A DNA stretch of 64,000 nt from an uncultured Bacteroidota bacterium (GCA_913041125.1 CAJWHM010000001.1:29698-93697); one strand, 5' to 3'; counted from the first letter of the stretch, positions 31,055-44,045 are shown. Notes: generated by a model not told the origin, from the sequence alone. Made by a program: numbers and translations.

Positions 31055-31056
31055 CG

Positions 31057-31940: not shown

Positions 31941-32107
31941 ATTAAACAAATTGGTTTATGATGAGCAACTATATTATTTAGTTGCATTATAAAAGTAATA
32001 AAAATTGATTTATTTTAAACCTATAATTTATCTTTTTTAATACAACTAAATATAATTTTATATTATTGTAATTTTTACAACCAATATAATTATCAAAGAC
32101 ATCCAAA

Positions 32108-32305
32108 ATGAAAAATATCTTTACTGAACATCCCAAATCTGTTGGTGAATCTTATTTGAAACATTTTATGTTTGCTATTAATATTGGTGCAAAATTATTT
32201 CTCTGGGGTATAATTGCTATAATTCATGCTATTTTACCTTTTACATTTAAAACATACGTATCATCAAGAATTAAAGAATTATATCATAAAATAAATAGAC
32301 GATGA
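32108..32305 (+). CDS. small membrane protein, hypothetical
   Basis: 65 aa, one or two hydrophobic helices (LFLWGIIAIIHAILPF). Confidence 0.45.
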   Translation: MKNIFTEHPKSVGESYLKHFMFAINIGAKLFLWGIIAIIHAILPFTFKTYVSSRIKELYHKINRR

Positions 32306-32324
32306 GTAAATGGAAATTAAATAT

Positions 32325-32789
32325 TTATCTAAGTGTCTCTAGTACGATAACACCAGCTCTAGCTTGTTTTCCCCATCGATTAGTTTCTGCAGCACTTACT
32401 AAAATTTTTACTTTCCTAATTAAAGGAGACAATGCCTGAACGTCTAATGGTGGAGAATTAAATTGTTGGCCATTAATAATCCACAATGGATAAATCTTAG
32501 ATGATTCTTCTGTAAATGTTTGATACTGTCTTAGTATTGGTAATCCGTTTGATTGTCTTGAAGTTGGTAAATGATACTTTAGTGCAAGATACCAAGTCTG
32601 AGCATTTTCATCAATACCCCACTGATTTAGTCCCATAGCTTTATACCTTGCTATAATATCTTGTTCTTTTTTCTTTCTTTTCATATCTCTTATTTCTTTT
32701 CTAGTAAGCCCTTTCAAGTAAACTTTATCTTCTTGAGAAAATGAAATATTAAATATGAAAAAAATAATCAATAGTGATGAAATTTTCAT
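32325..32789 (-). CDS. hypothetical secreted protein
   Basis: 154 aa with signal peptide MKISSLLIIFFIFNISFSQ. No recognised domain. Confidence 0.55.
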   Translation of the reverse strand: MKISSLLIIFFIFNISFSQEDKVYLKGLTRKEIRDMKRKKKEQDIIARYKAMGLNQWGIDENAQTWYLALKYHLPTSRQSNGLPILRQYQTFTEESSKIYPLWIINGQQFNSPPLDVQALSPLIRKVKILVSAAETNRWGKQARAGVIVLETLR

Positions 32790-32877
32790 AAAATGAATAT
32801 GTAAGAATTGATATTTAAAGGTTTTAAAAATTTAATCATTTTTAGAAAAATATGGATATTATATGTTAATAACAATT

Positions 32878-33057
32878 CTAATTATTAGAACATTCCCCAT
32901 CTGTATATATAGTAATGCCATCAATTCCTGCGAAACATTCGTTGCCATATGTTTTCCCATTGATTCCACATACTGGAAAATAATTATCATCACATGGGCT
33001 AGCACTAGTGCAAGAAAAAATAAAAGCTACTAAGAATAATAAATAAAATTTCTTCAT
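32878..33057 (-). CDS. Kazal-type protease-inhibitor-like small lipoprotein (59 aa, absent from ORF track)
   Basis: Hand translation gives MKKFYLLFLVAFIFSCTSASPCDDNYFPVCGINGKTYGNECFAGIDGITIYTDGECSNN*. Lipobox FSC, and PVCGxxGxTYxNxC...GxC is the Kazal signature. Confidence 0.6.
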   Translation of the reverse strand: MKKFYLLFLVAFIFSCTSASPCDDNYFPVCGINGKTYGNECFAGIDGITIYTDGECSNN

Positions 33058-33205
33058 TGGTTTTGCTTTTATTAGAAGTTTTACTCAATGTAATAAAATT
33101 ATTTAAATCAATTTTGATTCTAAATTGTAGATATTTTATAAATAAATCCTGATTCAAAATACATTCAATCTCTGAAAAAATCCTTTATATTTACTCGTTT
33201 TTTAT

Positions 33206-33280
33206 GGTGGTTGTAGCTCAGTTGGTTAGAGCGCCTGATTGTGGTTCAGGAAGTCGTCGGTTCGAGCCCGATCTTCCACC
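33206..33280 (+). tRNA. tRNA-His (anticodon GUG) with encoded G-1
   Basis: Anticodon stem CCTGA/TCAGG with loop TTGTGGT. G-1 (33206) sits opposite C73. D arm GCTCAGTTGGTTAGAGC, T loop TTCGAGC. The acceptor stem has two adjacent T:T mismatches. Confidence 0.8.
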
Positions 33281-33283
33281 CTT

Positions 33284-33310
33284 AAGGGATTCTTTTGAGT
33301 CCCTTTTTTT
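33284..33310 (+). terminator. intrinsic terminator after tRNA-His
   Basis: AAGGGATTC-TTTT-GAGTCCCTT (9 bp including one G-U pair) followed by a 5-T run (33306-33310). Confidence 0.75.
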
Positions 33311-33471
33311 ATAGGGATTAACCAACTGCATTCTCCAAAAAAGCGAATACAAGTTTAAGAACGATTTACACTTAAATATACGAAATATAGACCAGTTTTG
33401 GCACGTATTTGGCACGCTAATTTAGTCGAAATTCATTCGAGACTATGTCTCTCATTGCAACTATATAGGGA

Positions 33472-33544
33472 CTCTGACGAGATTACTCCATTAAATATAT
33501 ATTGATCTACTCTATTTATGGCACTTTTAGAACTGTCATGTTGT
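33472..33544 (+). repeat. R3 element copy 1 (about 75-nt conserved intergenic element)
   Basis: CTCTGACGAGATTACTCCATTAAATATATATTGATCTACTCT... The first 42 nt differ at one position from copy 2 at 36359. Confidence 0.8.
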
Positions 33545-33548
33545 ATAA

Positions 33549-33600
33549 CAATAAATAGTATTAGTTATGGAAAAGAATTGGGACAAAATATTATTTTAGT
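33549..33600 (+). repeat. R2 element copy a
   Basis: CAATAAATAGTATTAGTTATGGAAAAGAATTGGGACAAAATATTATTTTAGT. Related copies at 37921 and 38323. Confidence 0.7.
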
Positions 33601-33603
33601 TTT

Positions 33604-33759
33604 ATGAATGATTTAAATTCTATTAAAAAATACAAATGCAATAGTTGTTCAAAAGAGATTGATTTTATTTGGGCAAGTAGTATTTATAATAACAATGAAT
33701 TTTCTAGACTTTGTACAAATTGTAGGGATGACTTGCTCAATAATTTGTATAAAAAATGA
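33604..33759 (+). CDS. small CxxC...CxxC zinc-ribbon protein (51 aa, absent from ORF track)
   Basis: Hand translation gives MNDLNSIKKYKCNSCSKEIDFIWASSIYNNNEFSRLCTNCRDDLLNNLYKK*. Stop TGA lies inside M1 motif copy a. Confidence 0.45.
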   Translation: MNDLNSIKKYKCNSCSKEIDFIWASSIYNNNEFSRLCTNCRDDLLNNLYKK

Positions 33760-33787
33760 TTGAAGTTCCTTCCTATACTTTTGTTAT
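33756..33787 (+). repeat. M1 junction motif copy a (stump)
   Basis: ATGATTGAAGTTCCTTCCTATAC... The frame closes after 16 codons. Confidence 0.7.
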
Positions 33788-33832
33788 TGATAATTTTATA
33801 AATTAGGTGATAAATAACTTAAATATAATTTT

Positions 33833-34099
33833 ATGAACTTAATGCTAACTGCAAGCTGTAATGATGCTGATGATTTTAAAATAAATGGCTATGAAAAATT
33901 TAAGCACGAGTTTGATGATTGGTGTGATTCTTCAAAATGTGTTTTTTGTAAAATTGATAATCAAAATGTTTTAGAACTATTTTTTGATGTAAATCCTCCC
34001 AAACTTCAAGAGTGGTTAGCTAAACCATCCACTCAACAAATGTTTAAAGAACATAATCTTATTCCAAAAAGATATTCTTTTGAGCCACTATCAATATAA
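33833..34099 (+). CDS. hypothetical protein
   Basis: 88 aa ORF with no recognised domain. Confidence 0.5.
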   Translation: MNLMLTASCNDADDFKINGYEKFKHEFDDWCDSSKCVFCKIDNQNVLELFFDVNPPKLQEWLAKPSTQQMFKEHNLIPKRYSFEPLSI

Positions 34100-34106
34100 A
34101 TAGCTA

Positions 34107-34271
34107 ATGCAATATTTAATCAGAAATAATTGGGGAGTTTTTTTTATTGGATTTTTCATTGCAATAGGGGATTCTCTTTTTTATTATGAATCGATTGCTT
34201 CTATTATAGGATTTTCACTAATGGTATTTTCATTTTATTTAATGAACTTAAAGTCAAAGCAAAAGAAATAA
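34107..34271 (+). CDS. small membrane protein (54 aa, absent from ORF track)
   Basis: MQYLIRNNWGVFFIGFFIAIGDSLFYYESIASIIGFSLMVFSFYLMNLKSKQKK*. Two hydrophobic helices. Stop TAA abuts the next ATG (TAAATG). Confidence 0.45.
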   Translation: MQYLIRNNWGVFFIGFFIAIGDSLFYYESIASIIGFSLMVFSFYLMNLKSKQKK

Positions 34272-34472
34272 ATGACAGAAGTTCCTTTATACCCTAATGG
34301 TTATCCATGTAAATGCTCTGGTGAGTGTAACTATTCTAAAGCTTATGAAGATGCTGGAAAACCAAAATATATAGATTTTGATAAGTTTACACGAAAAGAC
34401 TTTTCTCCAATAAGTGAAGAGGAAATTCTAATAAATAATTATCTTATAACCGAATATTGTTTAAAGAAATAA
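34272..34472 (+). CDS. small Cys-rich hypothetical protein (intact member of the M1-headed family)
   Basis: MTEVPLYPNGYPCKCSGECNYSKAY... 66 aa. The 5' end is M1 motif copy b. A frameshifted paralogue lies at 38876. Confidence 0.55.
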   Translation: MTEVPLYPNGYPCKCSGECNYSKAYEDAGKPKYIDFDKFTRKDFSPISEEEILINNYLITEYCLKK

Positions 34473-34690
34473 TGAAAAAAGAATATAAAGTTGAAGTAGT
34501 TAAAGAAGGTGCTCTAGGTACAATCTTTCTTGGATCAAGTAAAATGCCATTAAAAAAAATGGAAGAAGTAATGAATAAATACGGAGAAGATGGATGGGAT
34601 GTTGAATTTCAATTAGTTGAGAAAAGAAGACTATTATTTCTCTGGTCAAGAGAAGCTGCTATAATTACTTTTTCAAGAGAAAAGAATTAA
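34472..34690 (+). CDS. DUF4177-like small protein
   Basis: MKKEYKVEVVKEG...MNKYGEDGWDVEF...AIITFSRE resembles the DUF4177 pattern (YKVV...GWELV...ilER). TAATG overlap with the upstream ORF. The ORF track offers an alternative start at 34457. Confidence 0.55.
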   Translation: MKKEYKVEVVKEGALGTIFLGSSKMPLKKMEEVMNKYGEDGWDVEFQLVEKRRLLFLWSREAAIITFSREKN

Positions 34691-34730
34691 AACTTTATTT
34701 TTAATTTTAGGAAATTAAAACCGAATAAAG

Positions 34731-35285
34731 ATGAAAAACTTAATAATTCTATTTTTTTTGCCAGTATTAATTATTACTAGTTGTGTAAACATAGAATCTT
34801 CTAATCAATCAACTGAAAGCAAACCAATTGTAATTGGTTATGAAAGTGATAAAAACAACAAATACAAAATCGTAAATGGCGATATTAATTCAGTAGAAAT
34901 TGTTAAAGCATACTTTGATGCATACAATAAAAAAGATCTCCAAGCAGTATACAATTTGGAACACGAGGATGTTTTACTTTTTGCCCCTAATGGGATGACA
35001 ATTGAAAGTTCAAAACAACACCTAGAAGGCGGAGAAAAGTTTTTAGCAGCCAATCAATATGCAAAATGGGATATTATTTGGTCTATATCAACTCATGTAA
35101 ATTTTGAAAATAAGCCAACTGAAAATTGGGTTACATCTGGAATCCTCGTGTCTTATGGAAAAGATAAAGCATCAAAAACTTCAGTTAGTAGAGTTGTTGA
35201 TCTTATGATTAAAGACGGTAAAGTTAAAAAAGGATACATTCATCAACGTCAATTATCAGAAACTGAAAAATCTAGTAATGAATGA
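34731..35285 (+). CDS. SnoaL/NTF2-like lipoprotein
   Basis: Lipobox ITSC. VEIVKAYFDAYNKKDLQAVYNL is typical of the N-terminal helix of SnoaL-like domains. Confidence 0.6.
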   Translation: MKNLIILFFLPVLIITSCVNIESSNQSTESKPIVIGYESDKNNKYKIVNGDINSVEIVKAYFDAYNKKDLQAVYNLEHEDVLLFAPNGMTIESSKQHLEGGEKFLAANQYAKWDIIWSISTHVNFENKPTENWVTSGILVSYGKDKASKTSVSRVVDLMIKDGKVKKGYIHQRQLSETEKSSNE

Positions 35286-35312
35286 TGGATAAATTTTATT
35301 AGTATAAAAGCT

Positions 35313-36101
35313 CTATTTTTTGTCCTCATTATCAGAAATCATCAAAGGAGTTTTTCCATTTGTAATAATTATTTTTGAATTATTAGAAGCAGATAATTCT
35401 CTAAATACTTCAATTGCTTTGTTTTTTAAGACATTCTCTGTAAGACCTTCGGATATAATTATTTGTGCATCTCTTTCCCCTTTAGCACTAATAATTTTCC
35501 TTTCTGCTTCTTTTTTCTCTTGATTTAAAACAAACTCCATCCTCATTGCGTCCTGTTCTGCCTGTAATTTCCTTTCAATTGAACTGGCTAAACCGCGGGG
35601 TAGGCGAATTTGTTTCATTAAAACAGCAATCAAATCAACACCATTAGCTTGCTTTTCTAAATTAATTTTCATCTTGGACAAAATTTCACCCTCAATTTTT
35701 GATCTAACACCTGAATGCATATCTTTAGCAAAAAACTGTGCGCAAACATCAGATGCAGCTGATCTAAAGACGCTAGTAACTATTGATTCGTAATTTTTAC
35801 CTAAATTTTCCAAAACAGAAGCAACTTTATCTTCTTCAAGTCTATATAAAATTGATATTTCTGATTCTACACTTAAACCTTCTTTACTTGGAAGACTTAA
35901 TATTAGTTTAATATTCTGTGTTTGAGTTGATTCCTTTACAACTTTGCTTATTATAGGATTGTAAACCACCGATCCCTCTTTGACAACCTTGTCTGAAAAT
36001 TTACCTAACTTTTGTTTTATTCCAACTTCACCTGGTCTAATTATAGCGCAACTGACTATTAGATGAGAAATTACCAAAACAATAAAATTCTTTACCTTCA
36101 T
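35313..36101 (-). CDS. SPFH/band-7 (prohibitin-like) lipoprotein
   Basis: Lipobox VSC. GEVGIKQKLGKF..., coiled Ala/Glu-rich C-terminal part (RKLQAEQDAMRMEF...). Confidence 0.8.
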   Translation of the reverse strand: MKVKNFIVLVISHLIVSCAIIRPGEVGIKQKLGKFSDKVVKEGSVVYNPIISKVVKESTQTQNIKLILSLPSKEGLSVESEISILYRLEEDKVASVLENLGKNYESIVTSVFRSAASDVCAQFFAKDMHSGVRSKIEGEILSKMKINLEKQANGVDLIAVLMKQIRLPRGLASSIERKLQAEQDAMRMEFVLNQEKKEAERKIISAKGERDAQIIISEGLTENVLKNKAIEVFRELSASNNSKIIITNGKTPLMISDNEDKK

Positions 36102-36265
36102 ATTCGGAACTTTAATTTTTAATATAGTAATATTGAATAACTTTTATTTAATAAATTAAAATTATTCATAATTAAAATACAATCATTATAAACTTATGGA
36201 TAATTCTTATATAGACATTTGATAGAATTATATGTTCACCTTGCCTAGGATACTAAATTATTGGC

Positions 36266-36320
36266 ATATCCTTTTCTTGTAAATCAGGTATTCCTAATCC
36301 TGTTCATTAAGTTCCGTGAC
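36266..36320 (+). repeat. R4 element copy D (5' module only)
   Basis: ATATCCTTTT...AATCCTGTTCATTAAGTTCCGTGAC. The last 25 nt match R4 copy B (ATCCTCTTCATTAAGTACAGTGAC) closely. Confidence 0.6.
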
Positions 36321-36358
36321 CTTCGTGTCTTTGACACTCGGAGCTCAATAAATACTGG

Positions 36359-36433
36359 CTCTGACGAGACTACTCCATTAAATATATATTGATCTACTCT
36401 CTATTTCTGGCATCTTTGCAACTGCCATATTGT
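36359..36433 (+). repeat. R3 element copy 2
   Basis: CTCTGACGAGACTACTCCATTAAATATATATTGATCTACTCTCTATTTCTGGCATCTTTGCAACTGCCATATTGT. By eye, 8 substitutions and one 2-nt indel versus copy 1. Confidence 0.8.
36388..36418 (+). promoter_or_regulatory. candidate promoter embedded in R3 copy 2
   Basis: ATTG, 19 nt, then CATCTTTG approximates the TTTG-N19-TAnnTTTG consensus. It lies 45 nt upstream of ATG 36463. Confidence 0.3.
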
Positions 36434-36462
36434 TTTACTAATTTTAAGAAAATCCAAAACAA

Positions 36463-37149
36463 ATGAAAAGTCTTGTTGCAAAGTACTTGGTGGAATTTAT
36501 AGTCATCATAACTGGTATCTCTTTATCGTTCTATGTTGAGAATTTAAATCAGAATAATTACAAAGAAAATTTAAAGAATCAGTCATTGAAAAGAGTACTA
36601 AAAAATTTAGAGACTGATACTAGAGATTTTGAATTTAATTTAGAAGCAAATAGGAAAGCAATATATTCTTCAGACTGGATATCTGAAAGAAATAATAATT
36701 TACAATTTTATTCAAAAGATTCTGTTGGATTTCATTTAAACAGAGCAATATACTTTAATACAATTTTTGTTGATAATCAAGAGGAGTATCGTGGATTACA
36801 AAATTCAGGATTGATTGAGTTAATTGAAAATGAAAATATTGTTACCAATCTTCAACAAAAATACATAGTACACGAGTTTTTTAAAAAAATTGAAAACTCC
36901 ATAATGGATAGACGATTATATTTAGATGATTTCGCAAACAGAAATTTAAAATATAAGAGTTACAAAACAGATAATTTAGGTTTAGCTATTGACAGAATTT
37001 ATACAGGAAAACAAAATATCCCGCAGCACATAATTGAGGCTTTAAAAGACAAAAGGACATATCATAATTTTTACATAAAACGAATAAAGTCTAGATTAAA
37101 GGCAGATACTAATTTGGTAGAATTAATTAAAAATGAAATAAATGATTGA
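36463..37149 (+). CDS. hypothetical N-terminally membrane-anchored protein
   Basis: 228 aa. N-terminal helix YLVEFIVIITGISLSFYV. The layout recalls a Flavobacteriia-specific DUF family, which I cannot name with certainty. Confidence 0.6.
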   Translation: MKSLVAKYLVEFIVIITGISLSFYVENLNQNNYKENLKNQSLKRVLKNLETDTRDFEFNLEANRKAIYSSDWISERNNNLQFYSKDSVGFHLNRAIYFNTIFVDNQEEYRGLQNSGLIELIENENIVTNLQQKYIVHEFFKKIENSIMDRRLYLDDFANRNLKYKSYKTDNLGLAIDRIYTGKQNIPQHIIEALKDKRTYHNFYIKRIKSRLKADTNLVELIKNEIND

Positions 37150-37170
37150 AGTACCTCAAACTATTTTAGC
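37142..37170 (+). repeat. M1 junction motif copy c (stump)
   Basis: ATGATTGAAGTACCTCAAACTATTTTAGC. The stop of the preceding ORF (TGA 37147-37149) lies inside it. Confidence 0.6.
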
Positions 37171-37173
37171 TTT

Positions 37174-37893
37174 ATGAGTAAAAAACTTTCTGCTATTCGT
37201 GGATTAGTTTTTGCAAAACTGAATTTAAGTTATATTTTAATTGTATTTCTTTCTTGTTTAAATATTATTGGACAAGAGAAATTAAATAATAGTGGCTCAA
37301 CATCTTATCGAAAGGATCAAATTTATTTTGGAGCATCTTTTATGCTTCTTAATAGTGATCAAGAAAAATTTAAACGTCAAGGGATTTCAAAACAATTTCA
37401 ACTTGGTTTTGTAAGAGATATTCCATTAATTTCTTCTCGTAAATTAGCAATTGGTTTAGGACTGGGATATTCTTTTCAAGACTATAATTCTAATCTTGTT
37501 AGATTTAATATTAACAATGGAAATTCAATTTTTATAATAAATTATACCTTAAATCAAAAATCTAAATTATCATTTAATTTCATTGAATTCCCAATTTCTT
37601 TAAGATGGAGAAATATCTCCTTTAATAATAAATTTGAAAGAGTTTACGCAGGATTCAAATTTCAAAGGAATTTTCTTTCAAAACTGAAATATAGAAATGG
37701 TGATATAAAAAATATTTCTGATGAAGTTAATAATTGGAACAAAGAGTTATACTTAAGTTTTGGCTATAACACATGGAACGTTTATCTCTCGTATGATTTG
37801 AACCAAATTATGAAAAACTTTTATAACCAATATTCTGGTAAATCGTTTAATGTTAAATCTATAAAAATCGGACTGATTTTCTATATGCTATAA
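37174..37893 (+). CDS. outer-membrane beta-barrel (PorT/OprF-N-like) protein
   Basis: Signal sequence, alternating strands, C-terminal IKIGLIFYML. Confidence 0.6.
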   Translation: MSKKLSAIRGLVFAKLNLSYILIVFLSCLNIIGQEKLNNSGSTSYRKDQIYFGASFMLLNSDQEKFKRQGISKQFQLGFVRDIPLISSRKLAIGLGLGYSFQDYNSNLVRFNINNGNSIFIINYTLNQKSKLSFNFIEFPISLRWRNISFNNKFERVYAGFKFQRNFLSKLKYRNGDIKNISDEVNNWNKELYLSFGYNTWNVYLSYDLNQIMKNFYNQYSGKSFNVKSIKIGLIFYML

Positions 37894-37920
37894 ATGTCAT
37901 AGATTTTTTATTTTAGAAGA

Positions 37921-37972
37921 TAAAAATAGCTATAGTTATGGGAAAGAATTGGGAAGAAACATTATCTTATTC
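37921..37972 (+). repeat. R2 element copy b
   Basis: TAAAAATAGCTATAGTTATGGGAAAGAATTGGGAAGAAACATTATCTTATTC. Confidence 0.65.
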
Positions 37973-38140
37973 ATATGAAATATTTAAAATTACTTTGATT
38001 AATATCACTTGTATCTTTTGCAATATATTTTATAATAGAGTGGCTTGAAAGTGGTTTTGATTCTGTAATTTTTGCATCGTGAATTGCTATTTTGTTTTCA
38101 GGTGTTGGATTTCTTCATAAAAAATAAATTCTTTTACTAT

Positions 38141-38293
38141 ATGATTCATAAACTAAAAAATTTTGGTTTTTCAATCACATGTTTTGCAATACTATTTAAG
38201 CTAATGTCATGGCAGTACGCTGATAAACTTCTAATAGTAGGATTAAGTTCTTTAGGAATTTCTTATCTGATTAAAGTTTTTAAAAATGATTAA
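38141..38293 (+). CDS. small membrane protein
   Basis: MIHKLKNFGFSITCFAILFKLMSWQYADKLLIVGLSSLGISYLIKVFKND*. The ORF track extends to a non-ATG start at 38072, which is less likely. Confidence 0.45.
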   Translation: MIHKLKNFGFSITCFAILFKLMSWQYADKLLIVGLSSLGISYLIKVFKND

Positions 38294-38318
38294 TGTTTCT
38301 TTACACCCTAATGGTTAA
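38286..38318 (+). repeat. M1 junction motif copy d (stump)
   Basis: ATGATTAATGTTTCTTTACACCCTAATGGTTAA. It contains the stop of the preceding ORF (TAA 38291-38293), and its own frame closes after 10 codons. Confidence 0.7.
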
Positions 38319-38322
38319 ACCC

Positions 38323-38376
38323 ATAAATAGTGTTATTGGTTATGAAAAAGAATTGAGGCAAAATATTAATTTAGTT
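38323..38376 (+). repeat. R2 element copy c
   Basis: ATAAATAGTGTTATTGGTTATGAAAAAGAATTGAGGCAAAATATTAATTTAGTT. Confidence 0.65.
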
Positions 38377-38397
38377 ATTGATAAATACTATTGTAAG

Positions 38398-38568
38398 ATG
38401 GAAAAAAATAAGGTAAGTTTTGAAAAGAAAAAACTTGACAGATTAAGTTCTTTCAGATTTAAAATGAATTTTTGGCTATTAAATAAATTAGGTCTTGAGG
38501 GATTTAGGATAATACACGTAGTTGGAGGAATGCTAATTACTGTATTGGTATATGAGTTTATCCTATAA
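38398..38568 (+). CDS. small membrane protein
   Basis: MEKNKVSFEKKKLDRLSSFRFKMNFWLLNKLGLEGFRIIHVVGGMLITVLVYEFIL*. The longer ORF-track version (38293) reads through the M1 and R2 repeat remnants, so the internal ATG is preferred. Confidence 0.4.
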   Translation: MEKNKVSFEKKKLDRLSSFRFKMNFWLLNKLGLEGFRIIHVVGGMLITVLVYEFIL

Positions 38569-38597
38569 TTTAGAATATTGTTTAAAATAAAACAACA

Positions 38598-38786
38598 ATG
38601 AAAAACATTCTAATTAAATACAATAACCACTTTTCGGCTGTTATGATATTAGGAATAGGTATAGGTACTATATATCCAGATGAAACTGCAAATGATAATT
38701 ATATTTCTGCTGGGATTTATTTATTTGCTGCGTTATGCGCTTTACTGTCATTAACAGGAACTATCTTAAAATATTTTACAAAATAA
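38598..38786 (+). CDS. small membrane protein
   Basis: 62 aa, two hydrophobic helices. Confidence 0.4.
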   Translation: MKNILIKYNNHFSAVMILGIGIGTIYPDETANDNYISAGIYLFAALCALLSLTGTILKYFTK

Positions 38787-38875
38787 CTTGATTTATGAAG
38801 TTAGCATTAAACATTTTTTACATTTGTCTTGCATTTTTTCTTAGTGCTATTGCCTAATAGAGTAATTTTTACTTT

Positions 38876-39078
38876 ATGACGGAAGTTCCTTTATACCCAA
38901 ATGGTTATCCTTGTAAATGCTCTGGTAAGTGTAACTACTCTAAAGCTTATAAAGATGCAGAAAACCAAAATATATAGATTTTGATAAGTTTATAGGAAAA
39001 AGATTTTTCTCCAATAAGTGAGGAAGAAATTCTAATAAATAATTATATTAAGAGAGAGTATTGTTTAAATAAATAACA
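38876..39078 (+). pseudogene. frameshifted paralogue of the 34272..34472 Cys-rich gene
   Basis: About 200 bp colinear with 34272-34474. A 1-nt deletion (GCTGGAAAACC to GCAGAAAACC) gives a premature TAG at 38975-38977. A later +1 insertion restores the register only after that stop. Confidence 0.75.
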
Positions 39079-39507
39079 ATGAAAAAAATATTTTTAGTAG
39101 TCCTTTCAAGCTTAACTTTTTACTCATGTATTTCAGTAAAGTTCCCAGATTCAATTAACGCTGATATAAAAGTTGATGCTGAAAAAGAAATAGAAAGAAA
39201 AAAACTACACCATACTGTTGGATTCAAGTTCAAAGAAGGATCACCTTTAGATTCAATTAAAGAAAGTGCCCAAAATACTTTAGGAAAAATAGAACTATAC
39301 GCTGGAAATTTTAAATATGGTGATAATAATGTGAGTTCTATTGACCAGAAATACGCTAGAGGACATCAGCATATACTTCATGTAACTTTTTGGAGCGAGT
39401 ATGACAGAGACTCTCTTTACATGCCCCATCCACTTCATATTCAATTTGGAACTAAATGGGGGAAGTATGTTGATGAGATAGTTGTATTTGATGTTTGGGA
39501 GAAATAA
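39079..39507 (+). CDS. Dabb (stress-responsive alpha/beta-barrel) domain lipoprotein
   Basis: Lipobox FYSC. LHHTVGFKFKEGS...HILHVTFWSEYDRDSLYMPHPLHIQF fits the Dabb domain pattern. Confidence 0.65.
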   Translation: MKKIFLVVLSSLTFYSCISVKFPDSINADIKVDAEKEIERKKLHHTVGFKFKEGSPLDSIKESAQNTLGKIELYAGNFKYGDNNVSSIDQKYARGHQHILHVTFWSEYDRDSLYMPHPLHIQFGTKWGKYVDEIVVFDVWEK

Positions 39508-39600
39508 AACCTCCTTCTTTTTAATAATTTGGCAGTTCTAAATGTTTATAAATTAAGCAGAAATATAAAAACTTACAATTATAACTTAACAATAAACTAT

Positions 39601-39658
39601 ATCATCGAAATATCCTCCTAATTAAATTCAGGGTCTAATTTGTATATTGTTGGATATT
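39601..39658 (+). repeat. R4 element copy A
   Basis: ATCATCGAAATATCCTCCTAATTAAATTCAGGGTCTAATTTGTATATTGTTGGATATT. The ends AATATCC/GGATATT can pair. Confidence 0.7.
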
Positions 39659-39676
39659 AACCAGAATTGAATTAAA

Positions 39677-40081
39677 ATGAAAATCAAAACTATTTTTAAA
39701 ATCAATATTGCCTTAATTTTCTTACAAGGCCTTCCTTTATTTATTTCTTTGTTCTCACCAGAATTTAAAATGATGTTATTAGGTGATGTCTTCGGGAATA
39801 ATCCTTCTGATGATGCTATAATGATGTTTGACCAATTTGCCCTTGTTTTAGGTCTTGTTATTATTGGAATAATAGCATTAATCTATGGTTCACTTTCATT
39901 TAATGACATAAACGTATTAAGAAGATTATCACTGCTTTATTTTGCTCTTGCAGGATTTTTTGCACTTCCTGATTTAATAAGTGCCTTTAAAGGCGAACCA
40001 ACAGCTCCTCTTCCTGTAATTGTTTTAGGGTTAATTGGTCTTGGTTTATTTTATTACGGATCAAGGAAAGGAACTATTTAA
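39677..40081 (+). CDS. hypothetical membrane protein
   Basis: 134 aa, 4 predicted TM helices. Confidence 0.55.
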   Translation: MKIKTIFKINIALIFLQGLPLFISLFSPEFKMMLLGDVFGNNPSDDAIMMFDQFALVLGLVIIGIIALIYGSLSFNDINVLRRLSLLYFALAGFFALPDLISAFKGEPTAPLPVIVLGLIGLGLFYYGSRKGTI

Positions 40082-40134
40082 TCATTTGAATATCCTCTTC
40101 ATTAAGTACAGTGACTAATTTGTATATTAGGATA
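40081..40134 (+). repeat. R4 element copy B
   Basis: ATCATTTGAATATCCTCTTCATTAAGTACAGTGACTAATTTGTATATTAGGATA. The ends TATCCT/AGGATA can pair. It starts at the last base of the preceding stop codon. Confidence 0.7.
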
Positions 40135-40171
40135 AAATAATCATATTTAAGACTCTCCATAAAGGCAATTA

Positions 40172-40531
40172 ATGGAAACAATAAATCTTAATGATAAATA
40201 CAAGCTGTTTAATGAAAAATGGAGTCCACATAGTATTGCTGAACTTAATGGACAGCAAGTCCTGATAGCTAAAGTTGAAGGAGATTTTGTTTGGCACTCT
40301 CATGAAGAAGAAGACGAACTTTTTCATGTTGTAAAAGGAAAATTGACCATAGAATTTCGAGATAAAACAGTTGAATTATCTTCCGGTGAGTTGCTTTTAG
40401 TCCCTAAAGGAGTAGAACATCGTCCAAGAGCTGAAAAAGAAACTTGGATTTTACTTTTTGAGCCCTTAGGAATCAAACATACTGGAGAAAAAACTACAGA
40501 GATTACAAAATTTCACTACCCTAAAATATAG
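40172..40531 (+). CDS. cupin domain protein
   Basis: 119 aa. HSHEEEDELFHVVKG...VPKGVEHRP fits the cupin motifs G(X)5HxH...E and G(X)5PxG(X)2H. Confidence 0.75.
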   Translation: METINLNDKYKLFNEKWSPHSIAELNGQQVLIAKVEGDFVWHSHEEEDELFHVVKGKLTIEFRDKTVELSSGELLLVPKGVEHRPRAEKETWILLFEPLGIKHTGEKTTEITKFHYPKI

Positions 40532-40561
40532 ATCTCTCTCAAATATTTAAATAAAAAATTT

Positions 40562-41488
40562 ATGAAAAAAATGACTCTTATTTTAATGTTTACTCACCTA
40601 ATTTGTGTTTCTCAACATTCAAAAATTGAAAATTTTAAAATTACTATCCTTTCTACAATGCTTTCAGACACTCATGTTGGGGAGTGGGGTTTTTCAGCTT
40701 TAATTGAAGCGGATGGTCAAAAAGTTTTGTTTGACACTGGCTCGAGAGAGAAAACAGTTATTCAAAATGCGAATGAATTAAATATTAATCTCGATCATAT
40801 TGATAATGTTTTTTTAAGTCACAATCATAAAGATCATACTGGTGGATTAATCAGTTTAAAAAAAGAATTTCCAAATTCTTTTTCAAAAGCACATATTGGA
40901 GAAGGAATTTTTTATTCAAGACCTAATTCAAACGGAACAAGCCACTATATTTTAAATAATAAAAATTCACTTGAATCATTAGGTGTTAAGTTTATAACTC
41001 ATATTAATCCTTCACAAATTATGAAAGGCTTATGGACAACAGGTCAAATTCCAAGAAAATATGATGAAAAAAATTGGAGTGAATTAGGAAAGATAATTGA
41101 TTTAAACGGGAAGTTAGTTGAAGATACTATACCAGAAGACCAATCTTTATTTTTTGACACAGAAAAAGGAATAGTATTAGTAAGTGGTTGTGGGCACGCA
41201 GGTCTTATAAATACAATTAATTATATAAAAAATATAATTCCAAATAGACCTATTTATAAAATTATAGGAGGTTTTCATTTATTGAATTTAAAGCAAAATA
41301 AGCTGAAATGGACGGCAAAAAAGATGAAAGAATTTGGAGTAAAATATTTTGTAGGAGCTCACTGTACAGGATTAAATTCAACATATTCAATACGAAATTT
41401 TATGAATTTATCATCCAAAAATGCTTTAGTAGGTTCAGTTGGAACTTATATCACTGAAGAAGGAATATTTCCAGGGTATATGCAATAA
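40562..41488 (+). CDS. MBL-fold metallo-hydrolase (secreted)
   Basis: Signal peptide. SHNHKDHTGG (HxHxDH), later GCGHAG and GAHCTG. Confidence 0.75.
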   Translation: MKKMTLILMFTHLICVSQHSKIENFKITILSTMLSDTHVGEWGFSALIEADGQKVLFDTGSREKTVIQNANELNINLDHIDNVFLSHNHKDHTGGLISLKKEFPNSFSKAHIGEGIFYSRPNSNGTSHYILNNKNSLESLGVKFITHINPSQIMKGLWTTGQIPRKYDEKNWSELGKIIDLNGKLVEDTIPEDQSLFFDTEKGIVLVSGCGHAGLINTINYIKNIIPNRPIYKIIGGFHLLNLKQNKLKWTAKKMKEFGVKYFVGAHCTGLNSTYSIRNFMNLSSKNALVGSVGTYITEEGIFPGYMQ

Positions 41489-41559
41489 TTATAACAACTA
41501 TTTAGGATTAATTAAGTTTAGTAAATAATTTATATTTATAATTGATTAGCCATAAACAA

Positions 41560-42159
41560 ATGTCAAGATTTTTTGTGTTGAATCTAAGCCTAATAATTAC
41601 TTGTTGTTACAGGACAGATATTGTGCAATACGGATCTGCAAACACTGACCCTGCTACATTTGCAAGTGGACAACAACTCCCAACTAAACCAAAAGACTTA
41701 ACATACTTCTGCAATCCAGCAGGTCTTGGAAGAAAAGGTTGTAAATTTTTATCTAAATATGATGGTACAATATGGGCAGATACAGAAAATTATTATAGTG
41801 ACTTTTCAGATATACAATTTTTAAACATTGCATATTTCATATCCTTCTTTGATATTAACAATGATGTTTCATATTGCAAAGGATGGAGACCAGGTGAAAA
41901 TACTTATGATGGAATAAAATGGAATATAAAAATCAAAAAAAATGAATGGGATGAGTTTTGGTTTGATTATGAATTTTATGGGACAAGTCAAGAAATTGAA
42001 TATACTATAACTTATAAATATGAAGTAATTGATGGTTTACTTCATTTTTCAAATACAGAGGGACAAGAATTTATTTTCCACCCATCTAAAAAAAATTATT
42101 CAAAAGATTTAATTGACACAGGGGAAATAATTGAACAAGAAGGTTGTATGTTTTTTTAA
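41560..42159 (+). CDS. hypothetical lipoprotein
   Basis: ATG 41560 gives MSRFFVLNLSLIITCC... The ORF track starts at TTG 41542. No domain recognised. Confidence 0.5.
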   Translation: MSRFFVLNLSLIITCCYRTDIVQYGSANTDPATFASGQQLPTKPKDLTYFCNPAGLGRKGCKFLSKYDGTIWADTENYYSDFSDIQFLNIAYFISFFDINNDVSYCKGWRPGENTYDGIKWNIKIKKNEWDEFWFDYEFYGTSQEIEYTITYKYEVIDGLLHFSNTEGQEFIFHPSKKNYSKDLIDTGEIIEQEGCMFF

Positions 42160-42178
42160 TTAGAAAAAATATATTAAC

Positions 42179-42235
42179 GGAATATCCTATTGATTCAATT
42201 AATCTTTTACTAAAATCCAGTTATGGGATAATTAA
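42179..42235 (+). repeat. R4-like element copy C, fused to an R2-like remnant
   Basis: GGAATATCCTATTGATTCAATTAATC...CCAGTTATGGGATAATTAAC. TATCC (42183) and GGATA (42226) can pair. Confidence 0.45.
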
Positions 42236-42352
42236 CATTTATTTAAGATTGTATAAAAAAGTATTGATATAAAATGTGTTAAGTAAATTCAAATTTGGAA
42301 TTTCAGTAATTTTTCAGTAATTTCAGTTCCCTTTCAAAAAAAAGATTGCAAA

Positions 42353-42496
42353 ATGAAACTATCTCATACCAGAAAATATACTTTAAAGCAAGCTTGTGGT
42401 TGCACCAACTGTGCTTGTGGATATGTTGATAGAGTTACTCTTGAAAAAGAGAAAGATAAAGGTTTTAATAGAAAGTATCCTTATTTCGCTGACTAG
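42353..42496 (+). CDS. Cys-rich small protein (47 aa, absent from ORF track)
   Basis: MKLSHTRKYTLKQACGCTNCACGYVDRVTLEKEKDKGFNRKYPYFAD*. Preceded by three helically phased TTCAGT(A/T) repeats at 42301-42328. Confidence 0.35.
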   Translation: MKLSHTRKYTLKQACGCTNCACGYVDRVTLEKEKDKGFNRKYPYFAD

Positions 42497-42571
42497 TTTA
42501 TCCCTCCCCCATATTTTTTTCTTTAGTCTTAAGTGAAACTGTAAGTTTAGCAATGCCAATATTTATTTAAT

Positions 42572-42754
42572 ATGAAAGTATTTAAAAAATTATTTTTTTA
42601 CTTCCTTCTCTTTACTGGGATTATTCTATCAACTTCACATTTAGGAGATAATTATATGGGTATAAGTGATGAAGAAGGTTATTTATTAACTGTTGGAATC
42701 TGCTGCCTCATGGCTTTCTTTTTAGAATATTTCCTTCCAAAGATTAGAAAATAA
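42572..42754 (+). CDS. small membrane protein
   Basis: 60 aa, two hydrophobic helices. Confidence 0.4.
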   Translation: MKVFKKLFFYFLLFTGIILSTSHLGDNYMGISDEEGYLLTVGICCLMAFFLEYFLPKIRK

Positions 42755-42801
42755 ATATTACGGTTTCAAGCGCACATTAAATTTTCGATATTTTTGTTTA
42801 A

Positions 42802-42996
42802 ATGAACAAATACATTTTTACTGTTTCATTACTTTGTTGGGCAAATATTGGATTATTTTATGTTTTTTATTTGTTGAAATTAGAAACTGTATTAATTGGA
42901 GTTTTTCGTGAATTAACACTAATTCCGTCTTTTTTAGGGGGTGTCCTTTTACCATTACTTTTAGTTAATAATTTTTTCAAAAAAAAAAAAAAATGA
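42802..42996 (+). CDS. small membrane protein
   Basis: 64 aa, two hydrophobic helices, poly-Lys tail. Stop TGA lies inside M1 copy f. Confidence 0.4.
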   Translation: MNKYIFTVSLLCWANIGLFYVFYLLKLETVLIGVFRELTLIPSFLGGVLLPLLLVNNFFKKKKK

Positions 42997-43025
42997 TTCA
43001 AGTTCCATTATGTTCAAATAGTTAT
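42993..43025 (+). repeat. M1 junction motif copy f (stump)
   Basis: ATGATTCAAGTTCCATTATGTTCAAATAGTTAT (MIQVPLCSNSY versus MTEVPLYPNGY). The frame closes after 28 codons. Confidence 0.65.
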
Positions 43026-43140
43026 TTTATCAGTTCTCTTTATCATTTAAATCTTTCAAACAATATAAACGTTCTATGAAAACAAAATATATTGATTTAA
43101 ATATTTTAAATTAATTTTAGACATTATTCTAATAAATAAT

Positions 43141-43239
43141 ATGGGTAATCTTTCAAAAATTCAAAAGTTATTAATTGCAGCTGGTCTCTGGATTGCAGCT
43201 GGTTTTTTTTTCTATATGTATTATATTGACAATAAATAA
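43141..43239 (+). CDS. possible 32-aa membrane peptide
   Basis: MGNLSKIQKLLIAAGLWIAAGFFFYMYYIDNK*. Single helix. Weak call. Confidence 0.25.
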   Translation: MGNLSKIQKLLIAAGLWIAAGFFFYMYYIDNK

Positions 43240-43263
43240 AGTTTGATTATCAAGTAATTTTAA

Positions 43264-43908
43264 ATGATGAAATATTTATTGGTTTTACTATTAGTATCTA
43301 ATATAACGTTCAGTCAACAAGTTGATACAAATGAAATAAGTATTGTTAAAAATATTGAGGGTTTAAATGCAAATCAAATTTTTTCAAGATTAAACCTTAT
43401 TATAGACAATGTCTTCAATTCTGCTGACGATATTATCCAATTGAATGATTCAAATTCAAATAACATTATAATCAAAGCAAACGCAGAAATTCCTGTACCA
43501 AATCAAAATAAAATAATGTATCCCAACGCAATTATTGATTATCCGGATGAAATAATGTATTCACATAGATATACCTTTAATGTATCATGTAAAGATGGTA
43601 GATATAAAATGAAAATTAATTTTAATAGAGGGGAATTTATTGGAAAAACAAATAGCAACCCTAAAAGTCCATACTTAGCTATAATGCATCCAACTTCAGG
43701 ATTTATAGCAGAACAAGTTTATTTGTGGAAAAATGAGGTTAAAACTAAAGATTGGATACTTGTTTCAAAAAAGAAAAAAAAATTATTAATCGAGGCAATA
43801 CCATCTCATATAAAAGAGTATTCTAAAAATTTAGAAACTTATGGGAAATATATATTTAATTTAATTCATGATAGTATACTGGAAAGTAAATACGAAGATA
43901 ATTGGTGA
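43264..43908 (+). CDS. hypothetical secreted protein (possibly DUF4468-like)
   Basis: Signal peptide LLVLLLVSNITFSQQ. 214 aa. Family guess from the N-terminal pattern only. Confidence 0.5.
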   Translation: MMKYLLVLLLVSNITFSQQVDTNEISIVKNIEGLNANQIFSRLNLIIDNVFNSADDIIQLNDSNSNNIIIKANAEIPVPNQNKIMYPNAIIDYPDEIMYSHRYTFNVSCKDGRYKMKINFNRGEFIGKTNSNPKSPYLAIMHPTSGFIAEQVYLWKNEVKTKDWILVSKKKKKLLIEAIPSHIKEYSKNLETYGKYIFNLIHDSILESKYEDNW

Positions 43909-44045
43909 TTATAAATAATTTTTGTGTTTTTGTGCAGCTATGATATTATCAAAAGTCAGGAATATAAATGAAATTTGGGCTAGCTATCCGAATAAAAAAA
44001 TATGGTTGGATGATTTTTTTAAAATCAGAAAGAATAATTTTTAGG

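What the first reader, a model, noticed from the sequence alone, without database searches (positions are those of the whole stretch)
33756..43025. M1: a 30-nt motif recurring six times exactly at the 3' boundary of unrelated ORFs
The six copies are: 33756 ATGATTGAAGTTCCTTCCTATAC; 34272 ATGACAGAAGTTCCTTTATACCCTAATGGTTA; 37142 ATGATTGAAGTACCTCAAAC; 38286 ATGATTAATGTTTCTTTACACCCTAATGGTTA; 38876 ATGACGGAAGTTCCTTTATACCCAAATGGTTA; 42993 ATGATTCAAGTTCCATTATGTTCAAATAGTTA. In two copies the motif heads a real or recently real gene (MTEVPLYPNGYPCKC...). In the other four only the first 20-30 nt survive and the frame closes after 10-28 codons. At five of the six copies (all but 38876, which has no substantial ORF abutting it) the stop codon of the preceding, unrelated ORF lies inside the motif or directly abuts its ATG: TGA 33757, TAA 34269, TGA 37147, TAA 38291, TGA 42994. 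These stops fall in different registers, so what is conserved is a DNA-level joint rather than one coupling frame. I see two readings. Either M1 is a recombination joint at which cassettes are inserted upstream of an anchor gene, leaving a stump each time, or every cassette once carried its own copy of the Cys-rich gene and these copies decayed.
Basis: seen in the sequence. Interest (0 to 1): 0.65.

Follow-up and report, generated by a model that had tools for sequence, protein, structure and literature searches.

The report
Leftover gene starts in a tRNA island
The repeated 30-base motif is the start of a small cysteine-rich gene carried by mobile elements that pile up next to a tRNA gene in an uncultured marine flavobacterium; four of the six copies are decayed or truncated leftovers of that gene, so it is not a special DNA joining site.

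Summary

The "recombination joint" reading is not supported. M1 is the first about 10 codons of a 66-aa cysteine-rich orphan gene, restricted to marine Flavobacteriaceae.
- In relatives this gene follows a conserved 330-nt non-coding module just 3' of a tRNA gene (His, Met, Asn; partly Val).
- In two relatives that unit is closed by a tyrosine integrase and a partial tRNA repeat.
- The window island, downstream of tRNA-His, is a degraded array of such units: one intact gene, one frameshifted copy, one decayed full-length copy and three 5' stumps (16, 23 and 32 nt).

Pre-decay states of the stumps exist in other genomes, and stump lengths there differ (9, 11, 68+ nt). In 483 kb from other lineages all 51 M1 matches head recognisable gene copies. 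Only the first 9 nt are constrained at the DNA level.

ATGATTGA carries TGA in both alternative frames, which explains the stops. Strain-level breakpoints map to other repeats (the module and a 95-nt "R85" promoter repeat), not to M1.

The parts
33207..33281 (+). tRNA-His(GTG); the island starts directly 3' of it
33281..33610 (+). Full 330-nt non-coding 'module' (terminator hairpin, sigma54-like TGGCACGTATTTGGCA, D8 and D1 sub-repeats). The same module follows tRNA-Met in L002, tRNA-His in L012 and tRNA-Asn in L054.
33604..33759 (+). ORF51, a zinc-ribbon-like small ORF. Its stop (ATGA) overlaps M1 copy 1. The ORF51 + intact Cys gene pair is found in L003, L004, L019, L061, L062, L067 and L042.
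33756..33778 (+). M1 copy 1: a 23-nt 5' stump of the Cys gene
   Evidence: 95% homology with L003 ends at 33778, while the gene continues in L003; no gene-like remainder
34107..34271 (+). ORF54, a small membrane ORF. Its TAA abuts the ATG of copy 2.
   Evidence: an RNA contig spans this junction
34272..34472 (+). M1 copy 2: the intact 66-aa Cys-rich gene (MTEVPLYPNGYPCKC...)
36253..36312 (-). Remnant of the 3' end of a tyrosine-integrase gene (GLGIPDLQEKDMPII*, with stops upstream)
36323..36438 (+). Partial module (profile positions 163-278) joined to the integrase remnant. The integrase body, the partial tRNA and the left part of the module have been deleted.
36463..37149 (+). ORF228. Its last codons, AAT GAT TGA, lie inside M1 copy 3. 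In L038 the same ORF is followed by an intact Cys gene.
37142..37157 (+). M1 copy 3: a 16-nt stump. It is followed at 37162-37177 by a D1-tail (TATTTTAGCTTTATGA) that supplies the ATG of the OMP gene.
37924..37988 (+). D1b, the right-hand piece of a module copy
38072..38293 (+). ORF73. Its TAA lies at nt 6-8 of M1 copy 4. In L032 its homologue is followed by an intact Cys gene + DUF4177.
38286..38317 (+). M1 copy 4: a 32-nt stump joined directly to D1c (38319-38392)
38876..39076 (+). M1 copy 5: a full-length, frameshifted Cys gene. It is intact in sister strain L024.
39597..39694 (+). R85 repeat (integrase-3'-end-like arm + Bacteroidetes -7 box + 5'UTR + ATG). Strain-level breakpoints map here.
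40076..40175 (+). Second R85 repeat
42802..42996 (+). ORF64. Its stop (ATGA) overlaps M1 copy 6.
42993..43190 (+). M1 copy 6: probably a heavily decayed full-length Cys pseudogene
   Evidence: (D9)

Best explanation
M1 is the translation start plus the first about 10 codons of a small (66 aa) cysteine-rich orphan gene. In marine Flavobacteriaceae this gene sits near the tRNA-proximal end of small integrative elements.

The element layout in relatives is: tRNA gene, then a 330-nt conserved non-coding module, then 0-2 variable small 'slot' ORFs, then the Cys gene, then cargo genes that each have an R85 promoter repeat, then a tyrosine integrase on the opposite strand, then a partial tRNA repeat.

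Several such units accumulated downstream of tRNA-His in the window's lineage and were then eroded by deletions. The integrases, the partial tRNAs and most module copies are gone. The Cys gene survives once intact, once frameshifted, once as a decayed full-length relic, and three times as a 16-32-nt 5' stump.

The head survives because the upstream ORF is packed against it. Its stop codon lies in or directly before ATGATTGA, which carries TGA in both alternative frames, and TAA often precedes the ATG. Deletions that go further left would damage the upstream gene.

What is shown:
- the identity of M1 as a gene head;
- the unit architecture in relatives;
- the integrase remnant in the window;
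- pre-decay states in other genomes;
- the absence of M1 breakpoints between strains.

What is inferred:
- that the units arrived by successive integrase-mediated insertions;
- that selection on the upstream stop codon protects the stumps;
- that swaps of slot ORFs use the module and the Cys gene as flanking homology.
For: 1. Gene family. The search found 42 protein clusters (59-89% identity where all or nearly all of the query is matched; lower in fragments), all from marine metagenomes or uncultured Flavobacteriaceae genomes. The core YPCKC..C.YSKAYE.AG.P.YID is invariant. Only 21 representatives exist among 1.84 billion proteins, many of them truncated.

2. Link to tRNA genes.
- The gene lies 200-900 nt downstream of tRNA-His (L012), Met (L002), Val (L003, L019, L061) and Asn (L020, L054, L069).
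- The same module follows His, Met and Asn tRNAs at 78-94% identity.

3. Complete elements in relatives.
- L012: full tRNA-His, module, Cys gene, cargo, Phage_integrase-family gene (Pfam E 6.7e-11), then a 61-nt partial tRNA-His (92%) and a second module.
- L002: the same layout with tRNA-Met, an integrase 59-71% identical at protein level, and two partial tRNA-Met pieces.
- The window keeps an integrase 3' remnant fused to a partial module at 36253-36438.

4. Pre-decay states of the stump junctions.
- ORF51 + intact gene in L003 (95% identity, ending at M1 nt 23) and in six other loci.
- ORF228 + intact gene in L038 (91%).
- An ORF73 homologue + intact gene + DUF4177 in L032 (87.6%, ending at nt 32).
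- Intact gene + OMP in L001, L005, L013 and L017.

5. No fixed cut point. Remnant lengths are 9 (L037), 11 (L034), 16, 23 and 32 (window) and 68+ (L003), plus full-length pseudogenes.

6. Other lineages. In 483 kb, 51 of 51 good M1 matches head recognisable gene copies. Nine other hits (six distinct) with 2 mismatches equal the shuffle expectation.

7. Ordinary coding conservation. Synonymous differences average 0.32 in codons 2-11, against 0.39 elsewhere. Only ATT-GAA (codons 2-3) is invariant.

8. Independent origin of units. The window's units are closer to units in other genomes than to each other. Copy 2 + DUF4177 is 94.5% identical to L032. Copy 5 + Dabb is 93.6% identical to L002. Copy 2 against copy 5 is 83-89%.

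9. Packed upstream ORFs are general. In at least 10 unrelated upstream ORF families the stop lies at -2, +2 or +6 relative to the ATG. A metatranscriptome contig spans ORF88-ORF54-Cys gene.

10. Strain level.
- Eight contigs from different samples are 99.5-99.9% identical and collinear across all the stumps.
- The structural variants that were found break in the module (33468>36362) or at R85 (39592-39595 and 42161), not at M1.
Against: - The window itself has no intact integrase and no partial tRNA-His, so successive integration is inferred from relatives.
- All three short stumps stop within the first 32 of 201 nt. Under a single uniform deletion each, the probability is about 0.002-0.004. 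I explain this by progressive erosion bounded on the left by the upstream stop codon, but I have not shown it.
- Each stump is followed by a D1 piece or a D1-like start region. This regularity could also come from a directed process.
- The many unrelated slot ORFs joined precisely to both D1 and M1 are not fully explained by random events.
- One possible breakpoint near copy 6 in run X4 could not be examined, because the poly-A run trips the read-laying filter.
- The function of the Cys protein is unknown.
Confidence: 0.8

Rival explanations
1. M1 (perhaps together with the D1 tail) is a site-specific recombination site. Circular cassettes of the form D1-ORF(s)-M1 head would be inserted by a recombinase into the head of the anchor gene, leaving a stump each time. 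This would be an integron-like capture system.
For: - All copies have the same orientation.
- Each stump is followed by a D1 piece, and D1 directly precedes M1 in 'empty' sites (L016, L017, L020). Arrays therefore read D1-X-M1|D1-Y-M1.
- At least 10 unrelated ORFs are joined precisely to M1.
- Relatives encode a tyrosine recombinase.
Against: - Remnant lengths vary (9, 11, 16, 23, 32, 68+ nt), and so do the entry points into D1.
- Single-stranded DNA folding shows no significant hairpin at any copy (z between -1.07 and +0.97).
- M1 evolves like coding sequence apart from its first 9 nt.
- There are no stumps in 483 kb of other lineages.
- The arrangement is fixed at over 99.5% identity in eight samples.
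- The strain-level breakpoints found lie elsewhere.
- No supported M1-M1 joints were seen in four metagenomes.
Confidence: 0.07
2. The stumps are kept by selection as functional mini-ORFs or translation-coupling bridges. In this view MIEVP... leader peptides pass ribosomes from the upstream ORF to the next gene.
For: - Copy 3 forms an exact relay. The stop of ORF228 lies inside the mini-ORF start region (ATGATTGA). The mini-ORF's own TGA (37175-37177) overlaps the ATG of the OMP gene at 37174.
- The first 9 nt are invariant at synonymous sites.
- An RNA contig crosses the M1 junction of copy 2.
- In L037 the first 9 nt (ATGACAGAA) start a different ORF.
Against: - Only one of the three stumps gives such a relay. 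The mini-ORF of copy 1 ends 27 nt before the next ATG, and that of copy 4 ends in non-coding D1.
- The mini-ORF peptides diverge after 5 residues.
- No stumps occur in other lineages.
- RNA coverage over stumps 3 and 4 is near zero.
Confidence: 0.08
3. The Cys gene and the module act as portable flanking homology. Slot ORFs and cargo are exchanged between elements and strains by ordinary homologous recombination, so the 5' edge of M1 is a recurrent boundary of exchange without being a site. This is compatible with the best explanation and may operate alongside it.
For: - The same gene body + DUF4177 has four different upstream partners, and similarity switches at the 5' edge of M1. The partners are ORF54 (window), an ORF73-like ORF (L032), ORF45 (L002) and ORF228 (L038).
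- A minority variant in X2 joins module a to module b.
Against: - Any conserved gene in a variable context shows homology that starts at its ATG, so the pattern is not specific.
- No recent exchange event with both crossovers mapped was found.
- The homology is short: 200 nt at 83-94% identity.
Confidence: 0.35

Closest known systems
Additive flexible genomic islands at tRNA genes (described for Alteromonas and other marine bacteria; PMC4898812)
   Same: - The island starts directly 3' of a tRNA gene.
- It consists of small accessory gene cassettes.
[quoted passage not shown]
- Content differs between related genomes.
   Different: - Here the repeated units carry a conserved 330-nt non-coding module, a conserved 66-aa orphan gene and a 95-nt promoter repeat.
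- The host is a roughly 29% GC uncultured flavobacterium.
- In the window's lineage the island is largely frozen, at over 99.5% identity across samples.
Tycheposons of Prochlorococcus (bioRxiv 10.1101/2020.12.28.424599)
   Same: - Small cargo-carrying elements with a tyrosine recombinase that integrate at several different tRNA genes.
- They stack in tandem, separated by partial tRNAs.
- They leave degenerate remnants that build islands in a streamlined marine genome. This is the paper's description, matched here.
   Different: - The phylum is different.
- No replication, primase or helicase module was seen.
- Integrase relatedness to tycheposon integrases was not tested.
- The module, the Cys gene and R85 have no described counterpart.
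Integron cassette arrays (attI/attC)
   Same: - A one-directional array of small ORFs separated by a recurring short sequence.
- ORF stops often fall inside the repeat.
   Different: - There is no IntI next to the array.
- M1 has no hairpin-forming inverted repeat.
- There is no fixed crossover point.
- M1 is simply coding sequence of a gene.
Overlapping stop-start junctions (ATGA) in compact operons
   Same: The upstream stop overlaps or abuts the ATG of the next gene at -2, +2 or +6, and the genes are co-transcribed.
   Different: The same downstream start serves at least 10 unrelated upstream ORFs, and it persists after the downstream gene itself has been lost.

Membership tests
Integron (attC/attI cassette system) | An IntI-type integrase gene adjacent to the array, with attI and the Pc promoter | tested here: not met
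   No integrase ORF lies in or next to window 33.3-44 kb. There is only a 60-nt integrase 3' remnant at 36253-36312. In relatives the integrase sits at the far end of the element, next to a partial tRNA.
Integron (attC/attI cassette system) | Cassette-end sites are imperfect inverted repeats that fold as single-stranded hairpins | tested here: not met
   Single-stranded DNA folds of 100 nt around all six copies (three of them also on the - strand) give z-scores from -1.07 to +0.97 against shuffles.
Integron (attC/attI cassette system) | A fixed crossover position within the site | tested here: not met
   Remnants end at nt 9, 11, 16, 23, 32 and 68+.
tRNA-linked integrative-element island (additive island / tycheposon-like) | Located directly 3' of a tRNA gene | tested here: met
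   tRNA-His is at 33207-33281 and the module starts at 33281.
tRNA-linked integrative-element island (additive island / tycheposon-like) | [quoted passage not shown] | tested here: inconclusive
   There are none in the window. They are present in related islands: a 61-nt partial tRNA-His in L012, two partial tRNA-Met pieces in L002, and partial tRNA-Arg in L018 and L056.
tRNA-linked integrative-element island (additive island / tycheposon-like) | A tyrosine (or serine) recombinase belonging to the unit | tested here: inconclusive
   The window has only a C-terminal remnant, GLGIPDLQEKDMPII*. L012 has a Phage_integrase-family gene (Pfam E 6.7e-11; PHROG integrase E 1.8e-15), split in two. L002 has a homologue.
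tRNA-linked integrative-element island (additive island / tycheposon-like) | The same element type is found at different tRNA genes and differs between strains | tested here: met
   The module and Cys gene follow His, Met, Asn and Val tRNAs. Strain variants are L072 and L076, X1 lacking 42272-44059, and an X2 minority lacking unit A.
Tycheposon sensu stricto | A specific integrase clade and an associated replication or packaging module | not tested
Ordinary paralogous gene family with pseudogenes | The motif heads recognisable gene copies elsewhere | tested here: met
   51 of 51 in 483 kb of other lineages. The remaining 2-mismatch hits are at chance level.
Ordinary paralogous gene family with pseudogenes | Conservation of the motif is explained by the encoded protein (synonymous sites are free to vary) | tested here: met
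   In 41 distinct intact genes the synonymous-difference fraction is 0.26-0.66 at codons 4-8 and 10-11 and 0.09 at codon 9, against a gene mean of about 0.39. Only codons 2-3 are invariant.
Translationally coupled overlapping genes | The stop of the upstream ORF overlaps or abuts the downstream ATG, and both lie on one transcript | tested here: met
   One search shows the positions -2, +2 and +6. An RNA contig covers 33816-34455 and another 34116-34318. Caveat: these are metatranscriptome contigs, and DNA carry-over is possible. Actual coupling cannot be tested here.

The most novel reading that the evidence does not exclude
The island units are not passive debris. In this reading they are products of an undescribed cassette system of marine Flavobacteriaceae.
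- The element's tRNA-type tyrosine integrase would also recombine short secondary sites at gene boundaries.
- One such site would be the R85 left arm, which is identical to the integrase's own 3' end. The other would be the D1-tail/M1 start region.
- That activity would capture and reshuffle single-ORF cargo, each ORF with its own promoter.
- M1 stumps and integrase-tail stumps would then be the scars of that activity.
Probability: 0.08. Interest if true: 0.75.

Novelty: new member of a known kind. Interest (0 to 1): 0.33.

Why it matters
As posed, the finding reduces to something ordinary. The motif is the head of a repeated small gene, and the short copies are its eroded remains in a tRNA-linked island.

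What remains of value is the context.
- It points to an apparently undescribed family of small integrase-carrying cargo elements in abundant, uncultured, streamlined marine flavobacteria.
- Their hallmarks are recognisable: a 330-nt module after the tRNA, a 66-aa Cys-rich orphan gene, and a 95-nt promoter repeat that starts with the integrase's own 3' end.
- They build islands in the way tycheposons do in Prochlorococcus.

These hallmarks could be used to find and delimit such islands in metagenomes. They also let one ask how cargo genes move in these organisms.

Tried and rejected
**Tests of M1 as a DNA or RNA site**
- Integron-like attC site: rejected on single-stranded DNA folding, on variable remnant lengths, and on coding-type conservation.
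- Structured RNA or a known RNA family in 33150-43200: only the tRNA was found, even at E up to 1.

**Searches for a known home or function of the gene**
- Phage or satellite origin: the Cys gene and module patterns are absent from IMG/VR. The protein is absent from the phage and plasmid collections. PHROGs hits only the integrase.
- Defence island: no PADLOC hits apart from a weak MBL match. NCBIfam gave no names.
- Function of the Cys protein: no Pfam, PHROG, NCBIfam or PADLOC family. The AlphaFold model has pLDDT 84.6 (three short helices) and no PDB fold match with E below 8.

**Searches in reads and contigs**
- M1-M1 joints or circles in reads: contigs from four metagenomes show only 20-22-nt-sided contig-end artefacts at M1.
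A restart at 42994 showed only a contig that begins in the poly-A run.
- An exact look-up of ORF205 was not on record.
- Strain comparison in the P0019 clade (L006-L011): collinear across the gene, with the breakpoint elsewhere.

**Other checks**
- Tail-only fragments of the Cys gene in the window: none found with a whole-gene profile. Tails of 15 nt or less would escape detection.
- Simple internal deletion as the origin of stump 3: rejected. The first 110 nt of the OMP gene also differ from the L013-type gene.

Full report
**1. Observation**

The window is a roughly 29% GC bacterial chromosome segment with ordinary housekeeping genes and five tRNAs.

The five stop codons said to lie in or against the motif are real ORF ends. 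A profile built from the six copies finds only those six in 64 kb (E 1e-8 to 1e-4; the next hit has E 0.45). Pattern searches are far above shuffle expectation. The region begins 475 nt after tRNA-His (33207-33281).

**2. What M1 is**

Copy 34272 heads an intact 66-aa ORF, MTEVPLYPNGYPCKCSGECNYSKAYEDAGKPKYIDFDKF... Copy 38876 heads a frameshifted copy that is 83-89% identical at DNA level.

The protein belongs to a very small orphan family.
- A search of 5.8 billion proteins found 42 clusters, all from marine metagenomes.
- Only 21 representatives exist among 1.84 billion proteins, many of them truncated.
- Nine genomic loci were found, all in uncultured marine Bacteroidetes or Flavobacteriaceae single-cell or metagenome-assembled genomes.
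- The N-terminus encoded by M1 is part of the conserved core: V4, Y11, P12, C13 and K14 are invariant.
- There is no Pfam, PHROG, NCBIfam or PADLOC match. The AlphaFold model is confident (pLDDT 84.6) but has no PDB counterpart.

In 41 distinct intact genes, synonymous sites in codons 4-11 vary about as much as in the rest of the gene. Only ATT-GAA (codons 2-3) is invariant. M1 is therefore conserved as coding sequence, not as a DNA site. The exception is its first 9 nt.

**3. Context: a tRNA-linked family of integrative elements**

The 330 nt after tRNA-His (33281-33610, the 'module') is non-coding. It recurs at 78-94% identity directly after tRNA-Met in L002, tRNA-His in L012 and tRNA-Asn in L054. 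Its right-hand part (D1) follows tRNA-Val in L003. The Cys gene follows 200-900 nt downstream of the tRNA gene in these and other loci.

L012 is syntenic with the window to the left of the island (86% over 7 kb). Its layout is:
- full tRNA-His, module, two small ORFs, the Cys gene, then cargo;
- a Phage_integrase-family gene on the minus strand;
- a 61-nt partial tRNA-His (92%) and a second module.

L002 has the same layout at tRNA-Met, with a homologous integrase and two partial tRNA-Met pieces. Another clade shows full plus partial tRNA-Arg or tRNA-Met pieces around the gene.

This is the signature of site-specific integrative elements stacking at tRNA genes. It has been described for additive genomic islands (PMC4898812) and for tycheposons (bioRxiv 10.1101/2020.12.28.424599).

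The window has lost the integrases and partial tRNAs but keeps their traces:
- an integrase C-terminal remnant (36253-36312, GLGIPDLQEKDMPII*) fused to the middle of a module copy (36323-36438);
- two further D1 pieces, at 37924 and 38319.

**4. The stumps are eroded gene copies**

For each stump-bearing junction there is a relative in which the same upstream ORF is followed by an intact gene.
- ORF51 + gene in L003. Identity is 95% and ends at M1 nt 23, exactly where the window's stump ends. The same pair occurs in L004, L019, L061, L062, L067 and L042.
- ORF228 + gene in L038 (91%, ending at nt 15).
- An ORF73 homologue + gene + DUF4177 in L032 (87.6%, ending at nt 32).
- The OMP gene that follows stump 3 is preceded by an intact Cys gene in L001, L005, L013 and L017.

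Other genomes carry remnants of other lengths. L034 has 11 nt after ORF228, followed by an ORF228 paralogue whose last codons AAT GAT TGA again lie in M1 of an intact gene. L037 has 9 nt, reused as the start of another ORF. L003 has a decayed 68+ nt.

Copy 42993 retains weak collinear similarity along the whole gene. Copy 38876 is an intact ORF in a sister strain (L024).

In 483 kb from other lineages every good M1 match (51) heads a recognisable gene copy. The few 2-mismatch extras equal the chance expectation.

**5. Why stops fall inside M1 in different registers**

ATGATTGA contains TGA in frame +1 (nt 2-4) and in frame +2 (nt 6-8). Many copies also have TAA directly before the ATG. Any ORF that is open up to M1 is therefore closed there.

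Across loci, at least 10 unrelated upstream ORF families end at -2, +2 or +6. The tight packing is thus a general property of intact copies, inherited by the stumps. Metatranscriptome contigs span ORF88-ORF54-Cys gene (33816-34455) and the ORF54/M1 junction, which is consistent with co-transcription.

The stumps probably persist because deletions reaching further left would remove the upstream gene's stop codon. This step is an inference.

**6. Tests of the joint hypothesis between strains**

Eight contigs from different samples (Tara and others) are 99.5-99.9% identical and fully collinear with window 30463-43150, stumps included. Four metagenomes hold the island at flank-like depth and show no supported M1-M1 joint.

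The structural variants I did find break elsewhere.
- A minority form in X2 joins module a to module b (33468>36362) and so lacks the first unit.
- L072 and L076 are collinear with the window only from 39592-39595 onward, which is the left edge of an R85 repeat.
- Contigs in X1, X2 and X4 join 42161 (the end of ORF205) to an R85. X1 lacks 42272-44059.

A possible breakpoint near copy 6 in X4 could not be resolved because of the poly-A run. M1 shows no hairpin and matches no RNA family.

**7. Residual oddities**

Three things are not fully explained.
- All three short stumps end within the first 32 nt.
- Each stump is followed by a D1 piece or a D1-like start region. Stump 3 is followed by TATTTTAGCTTTATGA, a 1-mismatch copy of the D1 tail that supplies the next gene's ATG.
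- D1 directly precedes M1 in 'empty' loci (L016, L017, L020).

Progressive deletion between the Cys gene of one unit and the D1 of the next accounts for this, if it is bounded by the functional ends of the flanking genes. The integrase-remnant/module fusion at 36312/36323 shows that such deletions occurred. A directed process is not strictly excluded, and I give it about 7-8%.

**8. Verdict**

The 'decayed copies' reading is supported and placed in context. The 'recombination joint' reading is not supported.

The motif itself is ordinary. The element family around it appears undescribed: three literature searches found no description for flavobacteria. It is a new member of a known kind.

Noticed in passing
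window 39597-39694, 40076-40175, about 42170-42260 (degenerate), 36253-36312; L012 (8 copies), L002 (6), L034 (5): R85 is a roughly 95-nt repeat in front of most cargo ORFs. Its left 36 nt or so are the reverse complement of the last 12 or so codons plus the stop of the element's integrase (PELNEEDMPMI*). The rest is a Bacteroidetes-type -7 box (TAATTTG), a 5'UTR and the ATG. All copies share the same junction between the integrase tail and the promoter. Strain-level breakpoints (L072, L076, X1/X4) map to it. It may be the real exchange boundary of cargo cassettes.
   Followed up: partly
window 33281-33610 (also L002 9220-9555 and 17276-17626; L012 9232-9512 and 14212-14494; L054 532-796): A 330-nt non-coding module is conserved at 78-94% identity after different tRNA genes. 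It contains a terminator hairpin, a near-consensus sigma54-type promoter (TGGCACGTATTTGGCA, about 33398), a 52-nt D8 box (CTCTGACGAGAYTACTCCATTAAATATATATTGATCTACTCT) and the D1 box, which ends in an ATG. It matches no Rfam family. Its function is unknown; it could be an att arm, a regulatory region or an RNA.
   Followed up: partly
window 33468>36362 (run X2): A minority of the population (depth about 6 of about 20) joins module a to module b. It therefore lacks the whole first unit: ORF51, stump 1, ORF88, ORF54, the intact Cys gene, DUF4177, the SnoaL-like gene, SPFH and the integrase remnant.
   Followed up: partly
window 42272-44059 (run X1): The dominant strain in X1 (flank depth about 50) lacks this 1.8-kb stretch (depth 0-3). 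The stretch includes ORF47, ORF60, ORF64, M1 copy 6 and the DUF4468 gene. The left end is at 42161, where contigs continue into an R85. The right end is near the 3' end of the BaxI gene.
   Followed up: partly
window 40562-41488: This metallo-beta-lactamase-fold ORF carries a precomputed Pfam hit to PF23023 (Anti-Pycsar_Apyc1) in the contig annotations. My own Pfam scan listed only Lactamase_B families. PADLOC gave a weak RTasMBL hit.
   Followed up: no
window 42353-42496: A second small cysteine-rich ORF (47 aa...QACGCTNCACGYVDRV...) has no family match. It is among the better-covered island segments in four metatranscriptomes (contigs covering 42336-42766).
   Followed up: no
window 34700-36078: The SnoaL-like lipoprotein gene and the convergent SPFH/band-7 gene form the most abundant RNA contig of the island in all four metatranscriptomes.
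   Followed up: no
L012 14540-15229 (-) compared with window 36463-37149 (+): The ORF228 homologue lies right after a module copy in both genomes but in opposite orientation. The inversion end points lie close to the ORF ends.
   Followed up: no
L018 6644-6718 and 16381-16424; L056 45-119 and 6682-6725; L047, L048, L057, L059: In another clade the Cys gene lies between a full tRNA (Arg or Met, on the opposite strand) and a copy of the tRNA's 5' half (nt 1-44). This points to related elements with a different att geometry.
   Followed up: no
window 45272-45552: This short stretch to the right of the island is similar (74-75%) to a stretch that lies to the left of the island in L002 (7941-8228) and is also present in L016. 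It starts with a D1-tail-like sequence at 45282 (2 mismatches).
   Followed up: no
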